Shown here piece after piece: positions 6,420 to 54,037 of a DNA stretch of 64,000 bases. Both the position numbers and the translations under genes were made by a program. The stretch's first letter is position 1, and the number at the start of each line of letters is the position of its first letter. The notes beneath the pieces were generated by a model. That model saw nothing but the letters and a program-made list of their open reading frames with translations, searched no databases and was not told the origin of the DNA. Location: NCBI GenBank assembly GCA_964016885.1, contig OZ024743.1:357182001-357246000 (forward strand). Direction: 5' to 3'. The stretch is from Eledone cirrhosa. Lineage: Eukaryota.

Positions 6420-7010
6420 AGCAGTTGTCAAGTACAGCATCCATTACAACAACAACAATAACAACCATTGATGTTGTCATTGTGCAACAGTATTTGCAAC
6501 AACAACAACAACTGCTGTTGCTAATGTGCTAATGTGCAACAATCTTTACAACAATAACAACTACAACAGCTTTAATAATGTGCAAATGTGCAACAATCTT
6601 TACAACAATAACAACTACAACTGCTGTTGCTAATGTGCAAATGTGCAACAATCTTTACAACAATAACAACTACAACTGCTGTTGCTAATGTGCAACAATC
6701 TTTACAACAATAACAACAACAACTGCTGTTGCTAATGTGTAACAATCTTTACAACATTAACAACTACAACAGCTGTTGTTAATGTGCAACTATAACAACT
6801 ACAACTGCTGTTGCTAATGTGCAACAATCTTTACCATAATAACAACAACAACCATTACTGTTGCCAGTGTGCAACAATCTTTACACCAATAACAACCCAT
6901 GTTGCCAGTTCTTGCAACAACCCAACGACCATTGCTGTTGTTAGTATGTAGTAGTCATTGCAACAATAATAGCACTTATCAGAGAGCAACCATCATAACA
7001 ACAACCACAA
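6420..7010. repeat. CAA-rich minisatellite, ~42-52-bp units
   Basis: Recurring AATGTGCAACAATCTTTACAACAATAACAACTACAACTGCTGTTGCT. Confidence 0.85.
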
Positions 7011-7012
7011 CA

Positions 7013-9980
7013 GTTGTCAATGTGCAGCATTTGTTGTTATGCAACAGTAATTGCACTAATATCAGCTGTTGTTAAGGTGCAACTATCATAACAACCATAA
7101 CAACAACAACAACAGTAGCAGCAGTTGTCAATGTGCAGCATTTGTTGTTATGCAACAGTAATTGCACTAATATCAGCTGTTGTTAAGGTGCAACAGTCAT
7201 TACAACCATAACAACAACAACAACAACAACAACAGCAGTTGTCAATGTGCAGCATTTGTTGTTATGCAACAGTAATTGAACTAATATCAGCTGTTGTTAA
7301 GGTGCAACAGACATTACAACCATAACAACAACAACAGCAGTTGTCAATGTGCAGCATTTGTTGTTATGCAACAGTAATTGAACTAATATCAGCTGTTGTT
7401 AAGGTGCAACAGACATTACAGCCATAACAACAACAACAACAACAACAACAGCAGTTGTCAATGTGCAGCATTTGTTGTTATGCAACAGTAATTGAACTAA
7501 TATCAGCTGTTGTTAAGGTGCAACAGTCATTACAGCCATAACAACAACAACAACAGCAGCAGCAGTTGTCAATGTGCAGCATTTGTTGTTATGCAACAGT
7601 AATTGAACTAATATCAGCTGTTGTTAAGGTGCAACAGTCATTACAACCATAACAACAACAACAACAGCAGCAGCAGTTGTCAATATGCAGCATTTGTTGT
7701 TATGCAACAGTAATTGAACTAATATCAGCTGTTGTTAAGGTGCAACAGTCATTACAACCATAACAACAGCAGCAGCAGTTGTCAATATGCAGCATTTGTT
7801 GTTATGCAACAGTAATTGAACTAATATCAGCTGTTGTTAAGGTGCAACAGTCATTACAGCCATAACAACAACAACAACAACAGCAGCAGCAGTTGTCAAT
7901 ATGCAGCATTTGTTGTTATGCAACAGTAATTGAACTAATATCAGCTGTTGTTAAGGTGCAACAGTCATTACAACCATAACAACAGCAGCAGCAGTTGTCA
8001 ATGTGCAGCATTTGTTGTTATGCAACAGTAATTGAACTAATATCAGCTGTTGTTAAGGTGCAACAGTCATTACAACCATAACAACAACAGCAACAACAAC
8101 AGCAGCAGCAGTTGTCAATATGCAGCATTTGTTGTTATGCAACAGTAATTGCACTAATATCAGCTGTTGTTAAGGTGCAACAGTCATTACAACCATAACA
8201 ACAACAACAACAACAACAGCAGTTGTCAATGTGCAGCATTTGTTGTTATGCAACAGTAATTGCACTAATATCAGCTGTTGTTAAGGTGCAACAGTCATTA
8301 CAGCCATAACAACAACAACAACAACAGCAGTTGTCAATGTGCAGCATTTGTTGTTATGCAACAGTAATTGCACTAATATCAGCTGTTGTTAAGGTGCAAC
8401 AGTCATTACAGCCATAACAACAACAACAACAACAACAGCAGTTGTCAATATGCAGCATTTGTTGTTATGCAACAGTAATTGAACTAATATCAGCTGTTGT
8501 TAAGGTGCAACAGTCATTACAGCCATAACAACAACAACAACAGCAGTTGTCAATGTGCAGCATTTGTTGTTATGCAACAGTAATTGCACTAATATCAGCT
8601 GTTGTTAAGGTGCAACAGTCATTACAGCCATAACAACAACAACAACAACAGCAGTTGTCAATGTGCAGCATTTGTTGTTATGCAACAGTAATTGCACTAA
8701 TATCAGCTGTTGTTAAGGTGCAACAGTCATTACAACCATAACAACAACAACAGCAGCAGCAGTTGTCAATGTGCAGCATTTGTTGTTATGCAACAGTAAT
8801 TGAACTAATATCAGCTGTTGTTAAGGTGCAACAGTCATTACAGCCATAACAACAACAACAACAGCAGCAGCAGTTGTCAATGTGCAGCATTTGTTGTTAT
8901 GCAACAGTAATTGAACTAATATCAGCTGTTGTTAAGGTGCAACAGTCATTACAGCCATAACAACAACAACAACAGCAGTTGTCAATGTGCAGCATTTGTT
9001 GTTATGCAACAGTAATTGCACTAATATCAGCTGTTGTTAAGGTGCAACAGTCATTACAACCATAACAACAACAGCAACAACAACAGCAGCAGCAGTTGTC
9101 AATATGCAGCATTTGTTGTTATGCAACAGTAATTGAACTAATATCAGCTGTTGTTAAGGTGCAACAGTCATTACAGCCATAACAACAACAACAACAGCAG
9201 TTGTCAATGTGCAGCATTTGTTGTTATGCAACAGTAATTGCACTAATATCAGCTGTTGTTAAGGTGCAACAGTCATTACAACCATAACAACAACAGCAAC
9301 AACAACAGCAGCAGCAGTTGTCAATATGCAGCATTTGTTGTTATGCAACAGTAATTGAACTAATATCAGCTGTTGTTAAGGTGCAACAGTCATTACAGCC
9401 ATAACAACAACAACAACAGCAGTTGTCAATGTGCAGCATTTGTTGTTATGCAACAGTAATTGCACTAATATCAGCTGTTGTTAAGGTGCAACAGTCATTA
9501 CAGCCATAACAACAACAACAACAGCAGTTGTCAATGTGCAGCATTTGTTGTTATGCAACAGTAATTGCACTAATATCAGCTGTTGTTAAGGTGCAACAGT
9601 CATTACAGCCATAACAACAACAACAACAGCAGCAGCAGTTGTCAATGTGAAGCATTTGTTGTTATGCAACAGTAATTGCACTAATATCAGCTGTTGTTAA
9701 GGTGCAACAGTGATTACAACCATAACAACAACAACAACAGCAGCAGCAGTTGTCAATGTGCAGCATTTGTTGTTATGCAACAGTAATTGCACTAATATCA
9801 GCTGTTGTTAAGGTGCAACAGTGATTACAACCATAACAACAACAACAACAGCACCAGCGTTTGTCAATGTGCAGCATTTGTTGTTATGCAACAGTAATTG
9901 CACTAATGTCAGCTGTTGTTAAGGTGCAACAGTCATTACAGCCATAACAACAACAACAACAGCAGTTGTCAATGTGCAAC
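7013..9980. repeat. tandem satellite, ~28 units of ~102-114 bp
   Basis: Constant block GTTGTCAATGTGCAGCATTTG...CAGTCATTACAGCCATAA plus a variable (CAA)n(CAG)m tract. Unit starts at 7013, 7124, 7238, 7340 and onward. Confidence 0.97.
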
Positions 9981-11514: not shown

Positions 11515-11580
11515 TATTTCATTATACATATTTCAAGGGCCACCAGAGAAAACTATGGTGTGCTTTCATCAGATAAAATA
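11515..11580 (-). ncRNA. minimal type I hammerhead ribozyme (Penelope-type)
   Basis: Minus strand: TATTTTAT-CTGATGA-AAG.CA.CACCA[loop]TGGTG.GCC.CTT-GAAA-TATGTA-TA^-ATGAAATA. 8-bp stem I, AUA cleavage triplet, AATAAA overlapping the 3' arm. Confidence 0.75.
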
Positions 11581-14203: not shown

Positions 14204-14542
14204 CATTTCATTTCATTTTACGTCCGCTTTTTTTCCCTGCTTGCAAGGGTAGGACGGGAACTGATTCTGGCTTGATTTCTACAGCTGGATGCCCTTCCTA
14301 ACACCAACCTCATTTACAGTGAGTGCTGGGTGCTTTTTTTGCCGTGGCACCTACACGACCACTTTACAGTGGAATGATAGGGACCCCAGTCCCTATCATC
14401 TCATTTCTACAGCTGAGTAAACTGGAGCAATGTGAAATAAAGTGCCTTGCTCAAGGAAACAACACATCACCCGGTCTGAGAATTGAACTCACAACCTTTC
14501 GATTGCAAGGCCAATGCTCTAACCACTAAGCCATGTGCCTCC
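14204..14542 (-). mobile_element. SINE S1
   Basis: Near-identical to 577-920. Confidence 0.9.
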
Positions 14543-20339: not shown

Positions 20340-23300
20340 CAAACACAACCACAACCACAACCATCATCATCACTATCATTATCATCACAACCATCACAAC
20401 TACTGTCATGACCAAGACCATCACCATCACCATCACCACCATCATCGCCATCATTACCACAACTTCCGCCATCACCACTACTGTCACCATTATTGCCATC
20501 AGTAACTTTCACACTACCGTCATCAGGGCAACTAACTAGTACCACCACCATAATCACTGTCATCACTACCACCACCATCACCACTACTACCACCACCATT
20601 ACCATTATCATCACTACCACAACCATCACCACCACTGCCACCACCATTGCCATCAGGACAACAAACCACTACCACCACCATCACTTGCACCATCATAATG
20701 ACAAACCACTACCACCACCATTACCACTATCACCACCACCACCATCAGGACAACAAACCACTACCTCCCCCATCACCATTATCATCACTACCACCACCAC
20801 CACCACCAACACTAGCACCATCATGATGACAAACAACTACCACCACTGCCACCACCATTGTCATCACTAACTTCAACACTACCATCATCAGGACAACAAA
20901 CCCCCACCACTAGCACCACCACTATCATCTATACCACCACCAGCACACCACCACCAGCACACCACCACCACAACAACCACCACCATAACCATCACCATCA
21001 TCACCACTACCACCACCACCATAACCATCACCATCATCACCACTACCACCACCACCACCACCACCACCACCACCACCACCATAGCCACCAACACCACCAC
21101 CACCACCACCACAACCACCACCACCATCACCACCACCACCAGCACCACAACCACCATAACCGTCACCACCACCACCACCACCACCACCATAACTACCACC
21201 ACCACCACCACCACCACCACCACAACCACCACCACCACAACCACCACCACCATCACCACCACCTCCACCACCACCAGCACCAGCACCACCACCACAACCA
21301 CAACTACCACAACCACCACAACCACCATAACCACCACCACCATCACCACAACCACCACCACCACCATAACCACCACCACCAGCACCACCACCACCACCAC
21401 AACCAACACCATCACAACCACCACCACCACAACCACCACCACCACCACCTCCACCAGCACCACCACCACAACCACAACCACCACAACCACCACCACCACC
21501 ACCACCACCACCACAACCACCACCACTACCACCTCTACAACCACCACCACAACCACCAGCACCACCACCACCACCACAACCACCACCACCACATCCACAA
21601 CCACCACCACCTCCACCACCTCCACCACCTCCACCACCACCAGCACACCACCACCACCACCACAACAACCACCACCATAACCACCACCATCATCACCACA
21701 ACCACCACCACCACAACCACCACCACCAGCACCTCCACCAGCACCACCACCACAACCACCACCACCACAACCACCATCACCACCACCAGCACCACCACCA
21801 CAACCACCACCACCACATCCACAACCACTACCACCTCCACCACCTCCACCACCACCAGCACACCACCACCACAACAACCACCACCATAACCACCACCATC
21901 ATCACCACTACCACCACCACCACCACTACCACCTCCACCACCACCACCATAACCCCCACCACCACCACCACCACAACCATAACCACCACCACCACCACCA
22001 CAACCACCACCACCACAACCACCACCACAACAACCACCATCACAAGCACCACCAGCACCACCACCACCAGCACCACCAGCACCAGCACCACCACCACAAG
22101 CACCACAACCACCATAACCGTCACCACCACCACAACCACCACCACCACAACCACAACCACAACCACAACTACCACAACCACCACAACCACCATAACCACC
22201 ACCACCACCACCACAACCACCACAACCACAACCACCACTACCACCACCACCACAACCACCACAACCACCACCACCACAACCACCACCACCACAACCACCA
22301 CCACAACCACCACCATCACAACCACCACCACCACCATCACAACCACCACCACCACCTCCACCTCCACCAGCACCAGCACCACCACCACAACCACCACAAC
22401 CACAACCACCACCACCATCACCACCACAACCACCACCACCACCACCACCACCACCACCACCATAACCACCACCACCACACCATAACCACCACCACCACCA
22501 TAACTACCACCACCACCACCACAACCACCACCACCGCAACCACCACCACCACAACCACCACCACCACCACCACCACCACCACCACCACCATAACTACCAC
22601 CACCACCACCACAACCACCACCACCACAACCACCACAACCACAACCACCACCACCACCACCATAACTACCACCACCACCACCACAACCACCACCACCGCA
22701 ACCACCACCACCACAACCACCACCACCATCACCACAACCACCACCACACCATAACCACCACCACCACCATAACTACCACCACCACCACCACAACCTCCAC
22801 CACCGCAACCACCACCACCACCACCACCACCACCATCACCACCACAACCACCACCACCACCATCACCACCACAACCACCACCACCACCACCATCACCACC
22901 ACAACCACCACAACCACCACCACCACAACCACCACCACAACCACCACCATCACAAGCACCACCAGCACCACCACCACCAGCACCACCAGCACCAGCACCA
23001 CCACCACAAGCACCACAACCACCATAACCGTCACCACCACCACAACCACCACCACCACAACCACAACCACAACCACAACTACCACAACCACCACAACCAC
23101 CATAACCACCACCACCACCACCACAACCACCACAACCACAACCACCACTACCACCACCACCACAACCACCACAACCACCACCACCACAACCACCACCACA
23201 ACCACCACCATCACAACCACCACCACCACCATCACAACCACCACCACCACCTCCACCTCCACCAGCACCAGCACCACCACCACAACCACCACAACCACAA

Positions 23301-25237
23301 CCATCACCACCATCACCACCACAACCACCACCACCACCACCACCACCACCACACCATAACCACCACCACCACCATAACTACCACCACCACCACCACAACC
23401 ACCACCACCGCAACCACCACCACCACAACCACCACCACCATCACCACCACAACCACCACCACCACCACCACCACCACCACCACCACCATAACTACCACCA
23501 CCACCACCACAACCACCACCACCACCACCATAACTACCACCACCACCACCACAACCACCACCACCGCAACCACCACCACCACAACCACCACCACCATCAC
23601 CACAACCACCATCACCACAACCACCACCACACCATAACCACCACCACCACCATAACTACCACCACCACCACCACAACCACCACCACCGCAACCACCACCA
23701 CCACCACCACCACCAGCATCACCACCACAACCACCACCACCACCATCACCACCACAACCACCACCACCACCACCATCACCACCACAACCACCACAACCAC
23801 CACCACCACAACCACCACCACCACCACCACCACAACCACCACCACCACCACCACAACCACCACCACCACAACCACCACCACCACCACAACCACCACCACC
23901 ACCACCACCACCACCACCATCACCACCACCACCGCCACCACCACCACCACAACCACCACCACCACAACCACCACCACCACCACAACCACCACCACCTCCA
24001 CCACCACCACCACCACCACCACCACCACAACAACCACCACCACCACCACCACCACCACCACCACAACCACCACCACAACCACCACCACCACCACCACCAC
24101 CACCACAACCACCACCACCACCACCACCACAACCACCACCACCACCACCACCACCACAACCACCACCACCACCACCACCACCACCACCACAACCACCACC
24201 ACAACCACCACCACCACCACCACCACCACCACCACCACCACAACCACCACCACCACCACCACCACCACCACCACCACCACCACAACCACAACCACCACCA
24301 CCACAACCACCACCACCACAACCACCACCACCACCACCACCACAACCACCACCACCACCACCACCACCACCACCACCACAACCACCACCACAACCACCAC
24401 CACCACCACCACCACCACCACCACCACCACCACCACCACCACCACCACAACCACCACCACAACCACCACCACCACCACCACCACAACCACCACCACCACC
24501 ACCACCACCACCACAACCACCACCACCACCACCACCACCACCATAACCACCACCACCACCACCACCACCACCACCACCACCACCACCACAACCACCACCA
24601 CCACCACAACCACCACCACCACCACCACCACCACCACAACCACCACCACCACCACCACCACCACCACCACAACCACCACCACCATCACCACAACCACCAT
24701 CACCACAACCACCACCACACCATAACCACCACCACCACCATAACTACCACCACCACCACCACAACCACCACCACCGCAACCACCACCACCACCACCACCA
24801 GCAGCATCACCACCACAACCACCACCACCACCATCACCACCACAACCACCACCACCATCACCACCACAACCACCACAACCACCACCACCACAACCACCAC
24901 CACCACCACCACCACAACCACCACCACCACCACCACAACCACCACCACCACAACCACCACCACCACCACCACCACCACCACCATCACCACCACCACCGCC
25001 ACCACCACCACCACAACCACCACCACCACAACCACCACCACCACCACAACCACCACCACCACCACCACCACCACCACAACCACCACCACCACCACCACCA
25101 CCACCACCACAACCACCACCACAACCACCACCACCACCACCACCACCACCACCACCACCACAACCACCACCACAACCACCACCACCACCACCACCACCAC
25201 CACCACCACAACCACCACCACCACAACCACCACCACA
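20340..25237. repeat. ~4.9-kb (CCA)n/(CAA)-interrupted trinucleotide array with higher-order duplications
   Basis: Seen directly; rare marker motifs recur ~0.9-1.1 kb apart. Confidence 0.97.
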
Positions 25238-25442
25238 GTTATCATTACTATTGGAGAATGTTGAAGAAATATGACTTTAACATGCCATTTGTATTACCGT
25301 GCAACTCTGACTGACATTTGATGTCTAATTCATGGAGACATAGTTGGGACTTGACATTGGTACAATGAAGACCATTCACAATAAACACTTTGCAGCAAAT
25401 TCAGTCCATATGTGTGTATGTGTGTGTATGTGCATGTGAATA

Positions 25443-25506
<64 letters not shown>

Positions 25507-25749
25507 CATGTAAATATATGTATATGTGTGTATATATGCATATTTATATATAGATATTTCTATTCTGAATTTGTTTAGCAAGATTCTTTATCTGAAAACG
25601 TGTGTTGAAACCGATATTGTTATACTTTGGGAGGGTCATGTTGCCAATAAGAAACACACGCACCAGTTGCTTTCACTTCAATTTATTATAATAAATTTAT
25701 AAATTTAGGAATTTATAAATTTCCGGTTGGTTGGTTGGTTCCACAACCA

Positions 25750-26162
25750 GATGATTGTTTATATATTGTCAAAGTTCTTTCGTCACACATTATGTAACCT
25801 CTTCAGTGACTGGGGATTCTTTTCTTTGTTTTTGTGGCTCTCCTTTGTTCTGTCTTACGCCATCTTGTTTTTGTGTGTGTTGTGTGCTTAGTTTGCGCAT
25901 GTGTTACATCCGGGTGTCTGTGTGTGTTTATATTTGTTTATTTATTTGTTTATTTACATGTTACTGGTTGGTTGTTTGTTCTATGTGCGTGTGTGTTTTC
26001 ATTTTGTCCTTAATTGTAAGTTGTGATGTTGCTGTTCCATTCATGTTTTCTATTTAATTTTGGTTGGAGTTCATTTATGTTTATTGCCTCTGTGATTTGT
26101 CTAAAAGACGCAATGTTTAGACAAATCACAGAGGCAATAAACATAAATGAACTCCAATCAAA
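25750..26162 (-). mobile_element. Penelope-like element 3' fragment (GIY-YIG C-terminus and pLTR) with inverted 5' duplication
   Basis: Minus strand 26102-26010 reads RQITEAININELQPKLNRKHEW..*, matching the Penelope GIY-YIG terminal motif R.I.EAI.I...P.LNR. A hammerhead lies downstream, and there is a 47-bp fold-back at 26059-26105/26116-26162. Confidence 0.75.
25768..25810 (-). ncRNA. degenerate minimal type I hammerhead ribozyme
   Basis: Minus strand: GTCA-CTGAAGA-G-GTTACA[TAATG]TGTGAC-GAAA-GAAC-TT^-TGAC. One unpaired G at the base of stem II. Confidence 0.6.
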
Positions 26163-26430
26163 TCTTTGGCTGTGACCTCTTCAGGCAGTCTGAATTATTG
26201 TGGTATAGACAATCATATAATTCCAGTTCCTCAGTGAAATAACAACCCAACCAGGAACTGGGCATATCAGAGTATTGACAATATTATACACCTCAACAAC
26301 ATATGTACTTGTCTATACCATACTATTTCAGACTGCCTGAAGAGGTCACAGCCAAAGATGGCTGTCACTGAAATATATATAGCAGTAATAAACGAAGCTA
26401 AATTTAATCATTTGACTTTTTATTTAACTT
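26162..26430 (+). mobile_element. second Penelope-like pLTR fragment with inverted duplication
   Basis: Inverted repeat 26162-26212/26309-26359, followed by a hammerhead and AATAAA. Confidence 0.65.
26332..26386 (+). ncRNA. minimal type I hammerhead ribozyme (Penelope-type)
   Basis: ACTGC-CTGAAGA-GGTCACAGCC[AAAGAT]GGCTGTCACT-GAAA-TATATA-TA^-GCAGT-AATAAA. Palindromic stem III and AUA triplet. Confidence 0.85.
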
Positions 26431-26435
26431 TATTT

Positions 26436-26466
<31 letters not shown>

Positions 26467-26493
26467 GTATGTATATATATATATATATATGTA

Positions 26494-26562
<69 letters not shown>

Positions 26563-26603
26563 GTATGTATGTATATGTGTATATATGTATATATATATAT
26601 ATG

Positions 26604-26673
<70 letters not shown>

Positions 26674-27164
26674 CACATGTATATTTATATATATATGTAT
26701 GTATATGTGTATATATGTATATATCATTTCCTCATTTTCTCATTATTATCACCATTGATATCATCATCATCATCATCATTACCAATACCACCATCATCAT
26801 CCTCCCACCACTACCACCATCACTAATGCCACCATCATCATCCCCCCACCACTACCACCATCTCAGCTGTCACTGTCACTCCCACCAACATCACCCCACC
26901 ATCAAAGGCGGTGGTGGCAGTGGTGTAGTATTGGTAGATGATTTATTTTCACAGTATTTTAGTTTCATCCCTTTACATTCAACCTTAATTCAAATTTCCT
27001 TCCTTTATCTATAACACCTTCTTTCAATGTGTCCAGACAATTGACACCTCTCACCTGCAATATAGTCCTTCTTTTATGTGTCTGTGTGTGCTTATATTTT
27101 TTTATATTAGGAAGTCTTACTTACAATGATTATTAAACTTTTTAACACCAAATCACATGAGGTC

Positions 27165-27570
27165 AGCCATAACAACATCCCTGAACACCTTTTTGAATTC
27201 CATGTGTTTAATATCCGTGGACATGCTTACAAAATCAGAAAACAGCACGGCTCCCATGACTTTCGGAAACATTTTGTCACACTCAGAGTTGCTGAAGCAT
27301 GGAACAAACTACCTGCACCAGTTGTTAACTGTCGGGACACTGCATCCTTCAAAACTTCCATGCTTCCCGAAATTCGTCAATACTACACCTGATATTCCCC
27401 TTCCATACACACGCATGCATGTGTAATATCATGCGTGTGTATATCATAACTCATACATTATTTACATTCCTGACATTTGTACATTATTCTAAGTACTATA
27501 CATGCAGCTTTGATGAATTGTAGTGCATCTGAGCAGTGTACACAATAATTGTTATTATCATTATTATCAT
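27165..27570 (+). mobile_element. CR1-clade LINE 3' fragment
   Basis: RGHAYKIRKQHGSHDFRKHFVTLRVAEAWNKLP; same family as 19555. Confidence 0.92.
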
Positions 27571-29182: not shown

Positions 29183-29526
29183 CTTCATTTTCATTTCATT
29201 TCATTTTACGACCACTTTTCCCTGCTTGCAAGGGTGGGACGGGAACTGATTCTGGCTTGATTTCTACAGCTGGATGCCCTTCCTAACACCAACCTCATTT
29301 ACAGTGAGTGCTGGGTGCTTTTTTTTCCATGGTGTCTACACGACCACTTTGCAGTGGAATGATAGGGACCCCAGTCCCTATCATCTCATTTCTACAGCTG
29401 AGTAAACTGGAGCAATGTGAAATAAAGTGTCTTGTTCAAGGAAACAACACATCAACTGGTCTGAGAATTGAACTCACAACCTTTTGATTGCAAGGCCAAT
29501 GCTCTAACCACTAAGCCATGTGCCTC
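29183..29526 (-). mobile_element. SINE S1
   Basis: Near-identical to 577-920 and 14204-14542. Confidence 0.9.
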
Positions 29527-30970: not shown

Positions 30971-31439
30971 AGAAGAAAAAGATACATTAAATAATTTATG
31001 TATTCATGGATACACAAAAAATAGGGAAGTTATGGCTGGAACCTGTTGTATTATAGTTCCACTCAGTCTGCACTGACCTGTGGTTAAACAACAACAAGAA
31101 CACCATACACACAACTATAACTACAATGACTATTACCACTACAGTATAGTGACCACATGACATCTACACAGTCAGAGTTACCACTATTCTACAGCTACCA
31201 CTGACCTCCAAGAGAAGTTTTGCAAGGCGGTGCAAGAGCCCTTTAGGACCCGAAGCAGCCAAAGATTTTTCTCAAAATGGATATTGAATGGTTGCTGTGG
31301 GGCCTTCTTAGCTCTTGGACCCCAGAATAAAGTACCGGTTTGACCACTCTCTCATAGGCCCTGGCCACTACTATCATGACTAAAAGTAATATGCATACAT
31401 ACACAACTACTACACCACTTCATTAAATAACCAGGCTTA

Positions 31440-32475
31440 TTAACAACTACAACCACTACACTTACTAAAAACTAGAACCACTACACTTACTAACAACTAC
31501 CACCTCTATGCTACCACCACTACACTTACTAACAACTACCACCTCTATACTACTACCACTACACTTACTAACAGCTACCGCCACTACACTTACTAACAAC
31601 TATCACAACTACACTTACTAACAACTATAACCACTACACTACAACCACCACAATTACTAATACCTACAACCACTACACTTACTAACAACTAACACCACTA
31701 CACTTACTAACAACTATCACCACTACACTTACTAACAACTATCACCACTACACTTACTAACAACTATCACCACTACACTTACTAACAACTATCACCACTA
31801 CACTTACTAACAACTATCACCACTACACTTACTAACAACTATCACCACTACACTTACTAACAACTATCACCACTACACTTACTAACAACTATCACCACTA
31901 CACTTACTAACAACTAACACCACTACACTTACTAACAACTATCACCACTACACTTACTAACAACTATCACCACTACACTTACTAACAACTATCACCACTA
32001 CACTTACTAACAACTATCACCACTACACTTACTAACAACTATCACCACTACACTTACTAACAACTATCACCACTACACTTACTAACAACTATCACCACTA
32101 CACTTACTAACAACTAACACCACTACACTTACTAACAACTAACACCACTACACTTACTAACAACTATCACCACTACACTTACTAACAACCAACACCACTA
32201 CACTTACTAACAACTATCACCACTACACTTACTAACAACTATCACCACTGCACTTACTAACAACTAACACCACTGCACTTACTAACAACTATCACCACTA
32301 CACTTACTAACAACTATCACCACTACACTTACTAACAACTATCACCACTGCACTTACTAACAACTATCACCACTACACTTACTAACAACTATCACCACTA
32401 CACTTACTAACAACTATCACCACTACACTTACTAACAACCAACACCACTACACTTACTAACAACTAACACCACTA
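31440..32475. repeat. 25-bp minisatellite (ACTAACAACTATCACCACTACACTT), ~40 units
   Basis: Seen directly; homogeneous over 31680-32470 and degenerate on the left. Confidence 0.97.
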
Positions 32476-32539
32476 TACTACAACTGCCACTTTTACTCAT
32501 AATAGGATTGCAGGTTGAAAGGACTCTACAGTCACAACA

Positions 32540-39723: not shown

Positions 39724-39975
39724 ATTCTCGCTAACAACCCATCATCCCTCCCTCCCGCCCCCACGCACCACCATTATTACGTGGACCAATCATAAGTCAG
39801 AGGCCCATACTATCGCTTAACTGGTTGCTTTTCGATATGATGGATGGACTACGGAATTCTGGAGAGTTGAAGAGAGAAAAATGTGGACGCTCAGCGACAA
39901 TGCCAAAGATAAAGCCAAATTCACCTCGTGGACGAGAATGCAAGCACTCCTCCTTGTTTCGGCCCAGGATGGCTA
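39724..39975 (+). ncRNA. candidate HDV-like ribozyme at the RTE 5' end
   Basis: P1 ATTCTCG (39724-30)/CGAGAAT (39933-39), P3 TTC/GGA, L3 ACCTCGT. P2 and J4/2 are ambiguous. Confidence 0.45.
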
Positions 39976-42900
39976 ACATAACCCCATCCCCCCCCGCGCC
40001 CCACCGCTCCCACCCTCCAAACGCAATCCAAAACTTCAGAGTTGGTACCATGAATGTAGGCACCTTAAAGGGTCGCTCGAACGAGGTTGTAGAAATGCTT
40101 GAACGTAAGGAGGTCGATGTTTGTTGTATTCAAGAGACCAGGTGGAGGGGAGGGTCGGCTAGATTCATCGTGGGTAAAGAGCGATGCTATAAGCTTTTCT
40201 GGGTGGGAAATGACAATGGGTTGGGTGGGGTAGGAATCATGGTAGCAGAAAAGTGGGCAGATAAGATAATAGACGTAAATAGAGTGAACGACAGAATAAT
40301 TAAAATAAGACTTGTCCTCAATAAAACTACGGTGACAGTAATATCTGCGTACGCACCCCAATCCGGACAGCCCCGCGCTATAAAAGACAGATTCTACGAG
40401 ACACTGATGCTCGCTACCTCCCAAATAACCGACAGTGACTATATAGTTATTGCAGGCGACCTAAATGGTCACGTTGGACAACATTGTGACGGCTATGACG
40501 GAATCCATGGAGGCTATGGGTTCGGTACTAGAAATGAGGAAGGCTCCAGAATCCTGGAATTCTGCGACGCAAATAACTTAACTATCTGTAACACTAACTT
40601 CAAAAAACGAGACAATCACTTGATCACCTATAGGTCGGGGGAACACACAAGCCAGGTAGATTATATCCTTACCAGAAGACGTGACAGAGTGTCTGTTGTT
40701 AACACTAAATCCCACCCCCATGAAGAATTCACCTCCCAACATAGACTGATAATTAGCGACCTCATAGTCAGGACGAGACGTACTAGACAGCGAAAGAGGA
40801 CTATCCTCAGGAGAAAAATATGGAAGCTAAAGGACCCCATAGCCAGAAATAAATTTCAAAGCAAATTACTTGACGCTTTCGACAGTAAGGAAGAGCAATT
40901 AGAGTCGTATAATATAGAGGAACAGTGGGAATTCCTGAGAGCAAACCTGCTGACGGCGGCAGACGAAGTCTGTGGCTGGAGCAGGCCTGTAGGTAGGAGG
41001 AGAGTAACATGGTGGTGGAACAGTAAGGTGGAGGAGTCAATTAAGGCCAAAAAGCAGGCTTGGAAAGTATGGCGGGATGGGGGAAGTAGAGAAGACTATC
41101 AAGTGGCCAGGAGGGAAGCTAGGAGACAAGTGTACTTCGCAAGAAGGGAAGCAGAGGAAAGAAAGTTCAAGCATGTTCTACAACGTGAGGACCAAAAACG
41201 TGAGGTGTTCAGGATTGCCAGGCAATGTGTCAAGGAAAACCGTGATATTGTCGGGGAGAAGTGTGTACTTAACGATGATGGCATACTTGCCATCACCGAC
41301 GCTGATAAGAAGGTAGCTTGGAAGTGTCACTACGAAAGGCTTCTAAATGAGGAGAACAAATGGGAGAAAGATAGTCTCCCCCAGATCGATCCAATAGAGG
41401 GACCAGCAGTGTTAGTTGAAGGTAGTATAATAAGTAAGGCAATCAAAGATATGAAGACGGGTAAGGCGGCTGGGCCTTCGGAAATAGTTGCTGAGATGCT
41501 GAAGGCATCTGGTTCGGTGGGACACACCATGGTCACCCGGATAGTTAACCAAGTCGTACAGAATGGGGTTGTTCCGAAGGAATGGCGTAGCAGCATCATC
41601 GTTAACTGCTATAAGGGAAAAGGAGATGCCCTAGATAGGAGTAACTATAGAGGCATTAAATTAATCGACCAGGTCATGAAGGTCACGGAAAAAGTAATAG
41701 CGCAACTAATCAGAGAGAGAATTGATCTAGATGAAATGCAGTTCGGGTTTGTGTCAGGCAAAAGTACCACAGACGCTCTTTTCATTGTACGACAACTACA
41801 GGAGAAGTACCTAGCTAAAAGTAAACCCCTATACTTAGCTTTTGTCGACTTGGAGAAAGCCTTCGACAGAGTCCCCCGTTCCATTATCTGGTGGTCTCTT
41901 AGAAAACTAGGTGTTGACGAATGGCTTGTGAGAGCTATACAAGCCATGTATAAAGAAACAGTCAGTAAGGTTAGAATTAACAACGAATATAGTGAAGAGT
42001 TTAGCGTAAAAGTTGGTGTCCATCAGGGCTCTGTACTTAGCCCCCTACTATTTATTATTGCCCTTCAGGCTATAACAGAGGAGTTCAAGACCGGCTGCCC
42101 ATGGGAACTCCTATACGCAGATGATCTAACGCTCATAGCTGAATCAATGACCGAACTAGAGAAGAAATTCCAAACGTGGAAGCACGGCCTAGAATCAAAA
42201 GGCCTTAAAATTAACCTGGCTAAGACTAAAGTTCTAGTTTGTAGGAAAGAAAATAAGGCGGCGGTCCCATCGGGGAAATGGCCATGCTCAGTGTGTAGGA
42301 AAGGCGTAGGTAGAAACTCCATTTTATGTCCCAAATGCAAAGTATGGGTGCATAAAAGATGTAGTGGGATCACAGGTAAGCTAACTAAGAACATAGATTT
42401 TACATGTGGCCGGTGCTCTGGTGCAATAAGTAGCAGCAAGTGCCCACAAAATACTAGCTCCTTCAACTGCGCAGAGGGTTCTATAGAAATAGTGGATAGC
42501 TTCCGTTATCTGGGTGACAAAATCAGCAGTGGGGGAGGGTGCTCTGAAAGTACAGTAGCTAGAGTCAGAACTGGATGGAAAAAGTTCAGAGAGCTTATAC
42601 CACTATTAGCCGCTAGAGGGTTCTCCCTAAAAATGAAAGGCAGGTTATACGATGCCTGCATACGAACAGCAATGCTGCATGGCAGTGAGACCTGGGCATT
42701 GTGTGCAGAGGATATACGCAGACTAGAGAGGAACGAAGCTTGCATGCTCCGCTGGATGTGCAATAGTAATATACGTGAACGGCAAAGCATAAACGAACTA
42801 AGGAAAAAATTAGAAATAAGAGGGATCAGATGTTGTTTACTCGAGAGAAGGCTACGTTGGTACGGTCACGTGATGCGCATGAAAGACGACAGCTGTATAA

Positions 42901-43070
42901 CAAAGTGCAGGGCAATAAAGATAGACGGTAGCCACGGAGTAGGCAGACCCAGAAAAACATGGGACGAGCTGATAATTTCCGACCTCACACGCTTACACCT
43001 CTCCAAGACAATGTCACTGGACCGAGACCTTTGGCGGTACTCAGTAATAGAGAAGACCCGCCTTACCTAA
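39969..43070 (+). CDS. RTE polyprotein: AP endonuclease + reverse transcriptase with embedded PHD finger (frame open from 39825; start codon uncertain)
   Basis: APE motifs GTMNVGTL, CIQETRW, SAYAPQ, AGDLNGHVG, QVDYIL and SQHRL. RT motifs KAAGPSEI, NYRGIKL, QFGF, FVDLEKAFDRV, GVHQGSVLSPLLF, YADD and FRYLG. C-terminal LRWYGHVMR and GRPRKTW. No stops over 1081 codons. Confidence 0.96.
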   Translation: MANITPSPPAPHRSHPPNAIQNFRVGTMNVGTLKGRSNEVVEMLERKEVDVCCIQETRWRGGSARFIVGKERCYKLFWVGNDNGLGGVGIMVAEKWADKIIDVNRVNDRIIKIRLVLNKTTVTVISAYAPQSGQPRAIKDRFYETLMLATSQITDSDYIVIAGDLNGHVGQHCDGYDGIHGGYGFGTRNEEGSRILEFCDANNLTICNTNFKKRDNHLITYRSGEHTSQVDYILTRRRDRVSVVNTKSHPHEEFTSQHRLIISDLIVRTRRTRQRKRTILRRKIWKLKDPIARNKFQSKLLDAFDSKEEQLESYNIEEQWEFLRANLLTAADEVCGWSRPVGRRRVTWWWNSKVEESIKAKKQAWKVWRDGGSREDYQVARREARRQVYFARREAEERKFKHVLQREDQKREVFRIARQCVKENRDIVGEKCVLNDDGILAITDADKKVAWKCHYERLLNEENKWEKDSLPQIDPIEGPAVLVEGSIISKAIKDMKTGKAAGPSEIVAEMLKASGSVGHTMVTRIVNQVVQNGVVPKEWRSSIIVNCYKGKGDALDRSNYRGIKLIDQVMKVTEKVIAQLIRERIDLDEMQFGFVSGKSTTDALFIVRQLQEKYLAKSKPLYLAFVDLEKAFDRVPRSIIWWSLRKLGVDEWLVRAIQAMYKETVSKVRINNEYSEEFSVKVGVHQGSVLSPLLFIIALQAITEEFKTGCPWELLYADDLTLIAESMTELEKKFQTWKHGLESKGLKINLAKTKVLVCRKENKAAVPSGKWPCSVCRKGVGRNSILCPKCKVWVHKRCSGITGKLTKNIDFTCGRCSGAISSSKCPQNTSSFNCAEGSIEIVDSFRYLGDKISSGGGCSESTVARVRTGWKKFRELIPLLAARGFSLKMKGRLYDACIRTAMLHGSETWALCAEDIRRLERNEACMLRWMCNSNIRERQSINELRKKLEIRGIRCCLLERRLRWYGHVMRMKDDSCITKCRAIKIDGSHGVGRPRKTWDELIISDLTRLHLSKTMSLDRDLWRYSVIEKTRLT

Positions 43071-52750: not shown

Positions 52751-52849
52751 TATACACTGCCATACTCCACCTATGTACATGTGTTTGTATGTGTGTGTGT
52801 ATATGTGTGTGTGTATATGTGTGTATGTGTGGGAGTCTATGTGTGTGTA

Positions 52850-54037
52850 TGTGTGGGAGTCTATGTGTGTGTGAGTTTATGTGTGTCTATGTGTGAGTTT
52901 ATGTGTGTCTATGTGTGCATGTGTGAGTTTATGTGTGTATGTGTGTGAGTTTATGTGTGTCTATGTGTGTATGTGTGAGTTTATGTGTGTCTATGTGTGT
53001 ATGTGTGAGTTTATGTGTGTCTATGTGTGTATGTGTGTGAGTTTATGTGTGTCTATGTGTGTATGTGTGTGAGTTTATGTGTGTCTATGTGTGTATGCGT
53101 GTGAGTTTATGTGTGTCTATGTGTGTGAGTTTATCTGTGTCTATGTGTGTATGTGTGAGTTTATGTGTGTCTATGTGTGTATGTGTGTGAGTTTATGTGT
53201 GTATGTGTGTGAGTTTATGTGTGTCTATGTGTGTCTATGTGTGTGAGTTTATCTGTGTCTATGTGTCTATGTGTGTGAGTTTATGTGTGTCTATGTGTGT
53301 GAGTTTATGTGTGTCTATGTGTGTATGTGTGTGAGTTTATGTGTGTCTATGTGTGTATGTGTGTGAGTTTATGTGTGTCTATGTGTGTATGTGTGAGTTT
53401 ATGTGTGTCTATGTGTGTATGTGTGTGAGTTTATGTGTGGCTATGTGTGTATGTGTGTGAGTTTATGTGTGTCTATGTGTGTATGTGTGTGAGTTTATGT
53501 GTGTCTATGTGTGTATGTGTGTGAGTTTATGTGTGTCTATGTGTGTATGTGTGTGAGTTTATGTGTGTCTATGTGTGTATGTGTGTGAGTTTATGTGTGG
53601 CTATGTGTGTATGTGTGAGTTTATGTGTGTCTATGTGTGTATGTGTGTGAGTTTATGTGTGGCTATGTGTGTATGTGTGTGAGTTTATGTGTGTCTATGT
53701 GTGTATGTGTGAGTTTATGTGTGTCTATGTGTGTATGTGTGTGAGTTTATGTGTGTCTATGTGTGTATGTGTGTGAGTTTATGTGTGTCTATGTGTGTAT
53801 GTGTGTGAGTTTATGTGTGTCTATGTGTGTATGTGTGAGTTTATGTGTGTCTATGTGTGTATGTGTGTGAGTTTATGTGTGTCTATGTGTGTATGTATGT
53901 GAGTTTATGTGTGTCTATGTGTGTATGTGTGTGAGTTTATGTGTGTCTATGTGTGTATGTGTGAGTTTATGTGTGTCTATGTGTGTATGTGTGTGAGTTT
54001 ATGTGTGTCTATGTGTGTATGTGTGTGAGTTTATGTG
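52850..54037. repeat. 30/32-bp TG-derived minisatellite (GAGTTTATGTGTGTCTATGTGTGTATGTGT[GT])
   Basis: Seen directly, roughly 38-40 units. Confidence 0.96.

What the first reader, a model, noticed from the sequence alone, without database searches (positions are those of the whole stretch)
26332..26392. Essentially intact minimal type I hammerhead ribozyme with palindromic stem III and adjacent AATAAA
Seen: 5-bp stem I (ACTGC/GCAGT), CUGAAGA core, 9/10-paired stem II (G.U rather than G-C at the base), GAAA, TATATA, cleavage triplet AUA (cut after 26381), then AATAAA at 26387. Established: this architecture is typical of hammerheads in Penelope-like pLTRs and metazoan retrozymes, where a palindromic stem III allows dimeric cleavage. 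Inference: a self-cleaving RNA module hidden in apparent junk, able to cut any plus-strand transcript crossing it.
Basis: partly seen in the sequence, partly recalled or inferred. Interest (0 to 1): 0.75.

Follow-up and report, generated by a model that had tools for sequence, protein, structure and literature searches.

The report
Penelope retrotransposon stub with masked hammerhead
The self-cutting RNA (hammerhead) motif is real, but it is one of thousands of near-identical copies at the end of a known kind of jumping gene, and this short copy is predicted to be folded shut by its own mirror-image neighbour, so it is likely an ordinary inert insertion.

Summary
The motif is present base for base and is not chance (0 hits in 200 shuffles; stems covary across 17 relatives). 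It is not a lone hidden ribozyme. It lies in the terminal repeat (pLTR) of a young Hydra-type Penelope-like retrotransposon: 7,225 exact stem-II matches in this genome, and 4.1-kb copies encoding RT plus GIY-YIG with RWK, DKT and CxCX5C motifs. The G.U base pair and the C x C mismatch are family traits, not decay. The antisense arm drops the predicted hammerhead fold in a read-through transcript to about 1e-30, no same-strand family partner for a dimer lies in the window, and published metazoan PLE hammerheads do not cut alone. 'Cuts any plus-strand transcript' is therefore not supported. Side results: 30 of 31 head-to-head insertions have one tailed and one untailed end; 24 of 65 arms start at one likely RNA start; junctions at the cut site are 2-3-fold enriched but under 1%; one stem II position is unpaired in 17 of 17 relatives. 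The scan reported this layout and mismatch before on other DNA. New member of a known kind.

The parts
26332..26386 (+). Minimal type I hammerhead motif (stem I 5 bp, CUGAAGA, stem II 9/10 bp with G.U base and C x C at pair 4, GAAA, palindromic stem III, AUA; predicted cut 26381/26382)
26213..26437 (+). Long arm of the insertion: 3' part of the Hydra-type element's pLTR (element positions r3846-4071, 98% identical), untailed end; starts at the family's 5' junction hot spot
26213..26219 (+). 5' junction hot spot (TCATA, Inr-like, A at 26215): likely RNA start of the element (inferred)
   Evidence: 24 of 65 arms start at r3840-3852; 8 of 31 pairs have only one arm there
26162..26212 (-). Short inverted arm (r3942-3992): antisense to 26309-26359, covers stem I 5' strand, core and 5' arm of stem II; broken off in loop II at the junction with family B
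26387..26392 (+). AATAAA, part of the family's AATAAACGAAGC motif; role as poly(A) signal untested
26436..26724 (.). (TA)n target array at the untailed end
25563..26162 (-). Family B: 3' stub of a different, Neptune-type Penelope-like element (GIY-YIG C-terminus, 3' UTR, own short inverted arm 26103-26162 +), fused to the family A arm at a junction found once in the genome
25768..25810 (-). Family B minimal hammerhead (4-bp stem I, extra G after the core, 7-bp stem II)
25440..25557 (.). (TA)n target array at the family B end

Best explanation
This is the hammerhead motif of the terminal repeat of a high-copy Hydra-type Penelope-like retrotransposon, left here as a short head-to-head stub in a (TA)n array, and this copy is predicted to be folded shut and likely does not cut host transcripts. 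Shown: family membership, copy number, full-length parents with the motif on the coding strand about 1.2 kb after the stop codon, covariation, (TA)n targets, and two fixed 3' ends 57 and 152 nt past the cut site. Inferred mechanism: the element RNA starts near r3848; the GIY-YIG domain cuts both strands of a (TA)n target; RT primes on both ends from two internal start sites (r4071 on one, r4166 on the other) and the two cDNAs join head to head, often after only 225-320 nt. Templates are almost always uncut or re-ligated, because more than 99% of arms cross the cut site. The ribozyme likely acts only in element RNA, as a dimer through the AUAUAUAU palindrome in tandem copies or with help from the element's protein, to trim or circularise precursors. 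At this locus the tailed arm later lost its outer 175 bp in a one-off join to a neighbouring Neptune-type stub (deletion or template switch, not resolved).
For:: 1,069 first-look candidates, 47 of 50 listed matches full-length at 96-100%; 7,225 exact matches, reversed-pattern control 0; 11,614 with sister subfamilies; 4.1-kb parents; an 893-aa ORF with RWK, DKT, YRDD, CxCX5C, CxxC/CxH; Pfam GIY-YIG E 9.4e-4 (below cut-off); 87% of cells paired, 13 of 18 pairs with two-sided changes, 0/500 shuffles; slid controls 27-54%; 30 of 31 back-to-back pairs have one r4071 and one r4166 end (binomial p 1.5e-8); of the first 100 listed motifs 36 are in back-to-back pairs, 6 have a same-strand partner within 5 kb, 59 have no partner. 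P(fold) 0.18 alone, 6e-4 in the long arm, 6e-31 with the antisense arm; stem III costs 3.4 kcal/mol as a monomer, the 8-mer self-duplex gains 3.2; the window's two private substitutions lower P from 0.14 (majority copy L007) to 7e-4. B/A junction unique. Papers: PMC4209133 (monomer inactive, dimer weak), PMC11167929 (both strands cut and extended, two internal RT starts, protein-assisted HHR, cleavage not needed in vitro), PMC8557442 (Hydra motifs, one-sided tail, (TA)n).
Against: No activity or expression data: inactivity rests on thermodynamic folding, which ignores co-transcriptional kinetics, tertiary contacts and proteins; the same model also gives low P (4e-6 to 0.04) for two sister families presumed functional. 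A transcript starting at 26215 would lack the antisense arm. Hydra membership rests on motifs, not on a tree, and the element is longer (4.1 kb) than the 'generally <3 kb' Hydra families. Pfam RVT_1 does not hit the RT. The 17 aligned motifs were hand-picked by a descriptor that demands pairing and are related by descent, which inflates covariation measures.
Confidence: 0.85

Rival explanations
1. The copy is an autonomous, active cis-ribozyme that cuts and terminates host plus-strand transcripts, with AATAAA as a linked 3'-end signal.
For: Core, triplet and stems are intact; the isolated 55-mer folds correctly; A17 is a cleavable residue by established NUH rules (recalled).
Against: Antisense arm and a local competing helix; no same-strand family partner in the window; monomeric min-HHR inactive (PMC4209133), PAc HHR inactive without protein (PMC11167929); no host exon found: of the three window ORFs sent to Pfam, one was a LINE and two had no family (the other 129 of 132 ORFs were not scanned).
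Confidence: 0.05
2. The short pLTR stubs are a self-propagating non-autonomous unit (SINE- or retrozyme-like) transcribed from an internal promoter at r3848; the window copy could seed new insertions, with cleavage in trans between separate RNAs.
For: 24 of 65 arms begin at r3840-3852; most copies lack the ORF; PLE internal promoters are known (PMC2377424, abstract); junctions at the cut site are 2-3-fold above controls.
Against: No tandem arrays of monomers (6 of 100 with a same-strand partner); arm lengths of the two sides vary from locus to locus, so the fold-back is rebuilt at each insertion; the window's long arm lacks the tail with the second RT start; short RNAs could equally come from the 3' pLTR of full elements.
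Confidence: 0.15
3. The hammerhead is a vestige that no longer cleaves in this family at all and is kept only as a structural or protein-binding element.
For: More than 99% of arms cross the cut site; G.U at the base of stem II and a fixed mismatch; PMC11167929 found cleavage dispensable in vitro and no RNA-seq ends at the site.
Against: All core residues (C3 U4 G5 A6 G8 A9 G12 A13 A14 A15 U16 A17) are invariant in 17 divergent motifs; the motif is the only alignable part between subfamilies A and A2; in DNA contigs only 2 positions inside the motif vary at >=5% against 14 in the 119 bp upstream; modest excess of junctions at the cut site.
Confidence: 0.15

Closest known systems
Hydra clade of C-terminal-EN Penelope-like elements, incl. 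Hydra-1_Obim (Craig et al. 2021, PMC8557442; section 11 and supplementary files S1/S2 seen)
   Same: RWK, DKT, CxCX5C linker, CxxC and CxH around E and N, no GxKF/Y, (TA)n targets, hammerhead in the 3' end on the sense strand with 3-4-bp stem III; several published Hydra motifs also end stem II in ...UGAA.
   Different: A different family: its hammerhead differs from the Hydra-1_Obim row of file S2, and GAGGTCACAG was not found in the supplement text (line breaks can hide a match). Unit 4.1 kb instead of <3 kb; tail 95 nt instead of 30-40; internal C x C mismatch in stem II, not seen in the Hydra rows of file S2.
[quoted passage not shown]
   Same: Short helix I, long helix II, small palindromic helix III, mostly single dispersed copies or opposite-strand pairs 100-700 bp apart.
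   Different: G10.1.U11.1 in this copy (C in about 42% by contig depth) instead of the conserved G-C; no extra nucleotide between 9 and 10.1 unless stem II is read one step in.
Poseidon element PAc of Anolis (Frangieh et al. 2024, PMC11167929; passages read)
   Same: Two internal RT starts defining a tail, AT-rich targets, both strands extended, hammerhead upstream of the RT starts.
   Different: Other clade; in PAc the ORF starts inside the hammerhead, here the ATG lies about 200 nt past the cut site.
Non-LTR retrozymes (bioRxiv 10.64898/2026.07.22.740005, part 1 of 5 read; PMC7229834 listing only)
   Same: Type I hammerhead, mostly non-coding copies, PLE origin.
   Different: No head-to-tail tandem arrays; copies are truncated or inverted ends of an autonomous element.

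Membership tests
Metazoan PLE minimal type I hammerhead | Core CUGANGA ... GAAA ... NUH | tested here: met
   invariant in 17 relatives
Metazoan PLE minimal type I hammerhead | Helix I of 4-5 bp and long helix II, with covariation | tested here: met
Metazoan PLE minimal type I hammerhead | Short palindromic helix III/loop 3 | tested here: met
   8-nt palindrome; one two-sided change in a sister family
Metazoan PLE minimal type I hammerhead | G10.1-C11.1 pair and an extra nucleotide between 9 and 10.1 | tested here: inconclusive
   G.U here, G-C in a sister subfamily; read one step in, G10.1-C11.1 holds with an extra G before and an extra U after; published Hydra rows show the same ...UGAA form
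Metazoan PLE minimal type I hammerhead | Located in a pLTR of a PLE | tested here: met
Metazoan PLE minimal type I hammerhead | Self-cleavage (dimer or protein-assisted) | not testable with these tools
   only indirect: 2-3-fold junction excess at the site
Rfam hammerhead models | Match to a curated covariance model | tested here: not met
   no hammerhead hit at E<=10
Hydra clade PLE | Single ORF, RT then C-terminal GIY-YIG | tested here: met
   893-aa ORF in L094; YRDD; GIY-YIG E 9.4e-4, 19.9 bits, below the 22.6 cut-off
Hydra clade PLE | RWK present, GxKF/Y absent, DKG changed to DKT | tested here: met
Hydra clade PLE | CxCX5C linker; CxxC and CxH beside conserved E and N; no CCHH | tested here: met
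   CNCRNPESC, CKLC, CRH; absence of CCHH judged by eye against family B's pattern
Hydra clade PLE | (TA)n insertion and hammerhead present | tested here: met
Hydra clade PLE | Generally short (<3 kb) (a tendency, not a strict criterion) | tested here: not met
   unit about 4.1 kb
Hydra clade PLE | Phylogenetic placement with published Hydra RTs | not tested
   published sequences were seen only as paper text and compared by eye
Non-LTR retrozyme | Tandem repeats with a hammerhead in each unit | tested here: not met
Non-LTR retrozyme | Abundant circular RNA | not testable with these tools
   no raw RNA reads available

The most novel reading that the evidence does not exclude
A lineage of Hydra-clade hammerheads carries a fixed unpaired C at step 4 of stem II (unpaired in 17 of 17 relatives while neighbouring pairs covary) that acts as a protein- or partner-read switch, and the genome's thousands of insertion junctions record the element's RNA life cycle to the base: a start at r3848, a ribozyme cut at r4015 used in a small share of templates, and two RT starts assigned one to each DNA end. 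That would make it directly testable what PLE hammerheads are for.
Probability: 0.25. Interest if true: 0.55.

Novelty: new member of a known kind. Interest (0 to 1): 0.2.

Why it matters
As a single locus it matters little: it is one likely inert stub among thousands. The family is of modest use because it is young, abundant and has full-length copies, so it offers material for an open question (PMC4209133, PMC8557442 and PMC11167929 all leave the role of PLE hammerheads unsettled): whether cleavage happens in vivo, and how the head-to-head insertion with a one-sided tail is made. It also shows that Rfam models miss this motif class.

Tried and rejected
Rfam: whole window gave only microsatellite-driven miRNA look-alikes and two sub-threshold tRNA-like hits among 150 of 176 listed; the 181-bp stretch gave no hammerhead. 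Expression: no RNA holder listed; only contigs could be laid, and they show no molecule ends. Whether the B/A junction exists outside this assembly: no bridging contig among the 31 pieces listed, 869 not shown, so no verdict. G.U and C x C as signs of decay: rejected, both are fixed in the family. Composite B+A element as a mobile unit: rejected, junction found once. A conserved upstream auto-inhibitory helix covarying with position 11.1: rejected, linkage is loose (upstream G occurs with U11.1 in 7 of the 43 tabulated copies), both changes are CpG losses, and subfamily A2 lacks the sequence. A sharp junction peak at the cut site among short fold-backs: not clear; 26 of 110 arms start within 1 nt of the cut, but equal peaks sit at palindromes (-9, +6, +7), and 23 of 78 loci of other subfamilies were dropped before the count. 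Pure palindrome annealing as the cause of the r3846 hot spot: weakened, as 8 of 31 pairs have only one arm there. Two papers were not held and were not read: Lunse et al. (dimer cleavage; known only through PMC6765202) and Arkhipova 2017; either may describe stem II mismatches. One paper search for hammerhead + stem II + C-C mismatch found 0; octopus + Penelope + hammerhead gave only PMC8557442 as relevant.

Full report
Observation. The 55-mer folds with stems I and II as its minimum-energy structure (z -2.61). A strict descriptor finds 2 hits in the window and none in 200 shuffles. No Rfam hammerhead model scores it.

It is a repeat. A search of the window's own genome (G000, 3.0 Gb, 1,796 contigs) with 26230-26420 gave 1,069 first-look candidates; 47 of the 50 listed matches span the query at 96-100% identity. 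A stem II pattern has 7,225 exact matches and its reversed control none; a looser pattern that admits sister subfamilies has 11,614. The G.U and the C x C are present in nearly all 30 first loci; a sister subfamily has G-C at the base (about 42% by contig depth). That the animal is a cephalopod is my inference from repeat content and by-eye likeness to Hydra-1_Obim; I did not test it.

The parent element. [quoted passage not shown] Taking L031 as reference (positions 'r'): ATG at r92, ORF end near r2770, hammerhead r3965-4019 on the coding strand, first base after the cut r4015, and r1-42 repeated at r4124-4166, so the unit is about 4.1 kb. Eight of ten long loci chosen for long frames or tandem layout were informative; L094 has an uninterrupted 893-aa frame with RWK, DKT, YRDD, CxCX5C, CxxC and CxH and no GxKF/Y. 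These are the features given for the Hydra clade (PMC8557442, section 11). That paper's supplement lists one octopus Hydra family with a different hammerhead, so this family is another member. Several published Hydra motifs also close stem II with ...UGAA. L108 shows a true direct tandem with two same-strand motifs 4,097 bp apart, the layout in which a dimer could form.

Selection on the motif. I aligned 17 hand-picked motifs from about six families. All core residues are invariant. 87% of cells pair, 13 of 18 pairs show two-sided changes, 0 of 500 shuffles reach that, and slid structures fall to 27-54%. The set was chosen with a descriptor that demands pairing and the sequences are related, so this overstates the strength. 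Pair 4 of stem II is unpaired in 17 of 17 (C on the 5' side in 16). Between subfamilies A and A2 the motif is the only alignable stretch. In public DNA contigs only loop II (26356) and position 11.1 (26369) vary at 5% or more inside the motif, against 14 sites in the 119 bp upstream.

How the insertions are built. In 50 loci picked by the motif pattern on contig 1 and not by flank length, 30 of 31 back-to-back pairs have one arm ending at r4071 and the other at r4166; one has two long ends. Both ends abut (TA)n where I looked. A one-sided tail and inverted 5'-truncated copies are published features (PMC8557442 Fig. 2 legend; PMC3846280 passages), and PMC11167929 showed in vitro that a PLE protein cuts and extends both strands and starts RT at two internal sites that bound the tail. 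I infer that each DNA end uses one of the two starts. 24 of 65 arms (>=90% identity, not at a locus edge; 78 arms in all) begin at r3840-3852, and in 8 of 31 pairs only one arm does. This points to a template 5' end at an Inr-like TCATA rather than only palindrome annealing; it is inferred, not shown. Of the first 100 motifs listed, 36 are in back-to-back pairs, 6 have a same-strand partner within 5 kb and 59 have no partner.

This locus. The long arm is r3846-4071 (26213-26437, 98%), ending in (TA)144; the short arm is r3942-3992 (26212-26162). The short arm should be the tailed one, but it breaks in loop II and joins the inverted arm of family B, a Neptune-type stub (CX2-5CxxC linker and CCHH-type residues, 1,292 candidates, own hammerhead). 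That junction occurs once in the genome, so it is a one-off deletion or template switch; public contigs did not settle whether it exists outside this assembly.

Would it cut? The predicted share of the hammerhead fold is 0.18 for the bare 55-mer, 6e-4 in the long arm and 6e-31 once the antisense arm is included. Two private substitutions (26326, 26331) strengthen a competing helix: 7e-4 here against 0.14 for majority copy L007. Closing stem III costs 3.4 kcal/mol in a monomer, while the palindrome self-duplex gains 3.2. Published tests found no monomer cleavage and weak dimer cleavage for a metazoan min-HHR (PMC4209133) and no cleavage without protein for PAc. Against over-reading: the same folding model gives low values for two sister families, and a transcript that starts at 26215 would lack the antisense arm. 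No RNA run could be examined.

Does the family cut at all? If cut RNA were copied, arms would begin exactly at r4015. Counting by eye, 19 arms at 16 loci of 84 hits do, against 6 of the first 100 of 148 hits at +3 (4 of the 6 have a partner arm starting at the cut), 5 of 44 at -12 and 2 of 27 at +11. After correcting for the filters this is about 28 against 13, 10 and 3: a 2-3-fold excess, nominal Poisson p 1e-4 to 0.02, without a true denominator and with short microhomologies (GC, GCAG) as a rival cause. Among 55 short fold-backs (23 of 78 loci of other subfamilies dropped) 26 of 110 arms start within 1 nt of the cut, but palindromic positions give similar peaks. So there is a weak footprint of cleavage, and more than 99% of arms come from uncut or re-ligated RNA. 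The AATAAA lies between the cut and the RT starts, so the copied RNAs were not ended there.

Earlier scan notes. After my own tests I found that this scan had already reported, on other pieces of this genome and in other genomes, the Hydra-type fold-back stubs, the masked ribozyme, the junction marks and the unpaired stem II C. These are unchecked AI notes and not independent support; e1-9815236 pointed me to an ACTC..GAGT hairpin at the unit boundary, which is visible just past r4071 in the reference (print-out).

Papers seen: PMC4209133 (parts 1-2 of 4), PMC8557442 (passages, section 11, supplement tables S1/S2 in part), PMC11167929 (passages, references), PMC6765202 and PMC3846280 (passages), PMC2377424 (abstract), bioRxiv 10.64898/2026.07.22.740005 (part 1 of 5; its supplements are closed). 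Lunse et al. and Arkhipova 2017 were not held; they may bear on the mismatch. Hammerhead numbering, the NUH rule and the Inr consensus are recalled.

Verdict. Real motif, right family guess, wrong functional inference for this copy. New member of a known kind; interest 0.2.

Noticed in passing
window 11515-11580 (-): Third hammerhead motif, of a sister family (8-bp stem I, stem II with the same unpaired C at step 4, UAUGUA stem III); several relatives in fetched loci.
   Followed up: partly
window 25563-26162: Neptune-type Penelope-like stub (family B, about 1,300 first-look candidates) with its own hammerhead; this copy has two substitutions in stem II/loop relative to the other listed copies.
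   Followed up: partly
window 39735-43070 (+): 1,111-aa open frame of a LINE: AP endonuclease, RVT_1 and a PHD finger after the RT.
   Followed up: partly
window about 27140-27392 (+): Short frame that reads like the C-terminus of a CR1/L2-type LINE RT; family name recalled, not tested.
   Followed up: no
G000:C1:391162670-391162711 (-): A family A copy with about six clustered A-to-G changes in 24 nt, as expected if an A-to-I edited double-stranded RNA was reverse transcribed.
   Followed up: no
L032 8320-9726 (-) and 7195-7339 (-): A second Hydra-type ORF (35-43% identical to family A) with a family E hammerhead about 1 kb downstream on the same strand; likely its own 3' motif.
   Followed up: partly
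L101 2497/2991 and L102 2488/2988: Two loci 1 Mb apart share the same layout: a family A end followed 500 bp later by a same-strand motif of another subfamily; probably a duplicated or re-copied composite.
   Followed up: no
L099 (G000:C28:119675500-119685400): Head-to-head insertion of two almost full-length arms (about 4.0 and 3.7 kb) with long open frames on both strands.
   Followed up: no
window 47173 (+), 27844 (-), 33027 (-): Further CUGANGAG cores without a complete hammerhead by my descriptor.
   Followed up: no
window 6997-9978, 20564-25236, 31436-32479, 52808-54037: Long tandem arrays (111-bp unit x27, (CAC)n-like 4.7 kb, 25-bp unit x33, 32-bp unit x40).
   Followed up: no
window 14476-14533 (-), 29461-29518 (-): Two sub-threshold tRNA-like Rfam hits (28 bits), possibly SINE heads.
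   Followed up: no
G000:C24:10201638-10201756 (L184): A short fold-back whose centre holds a CUGAAGAG inside a new hairpin unlike family A's stem II.
   Followed up: no
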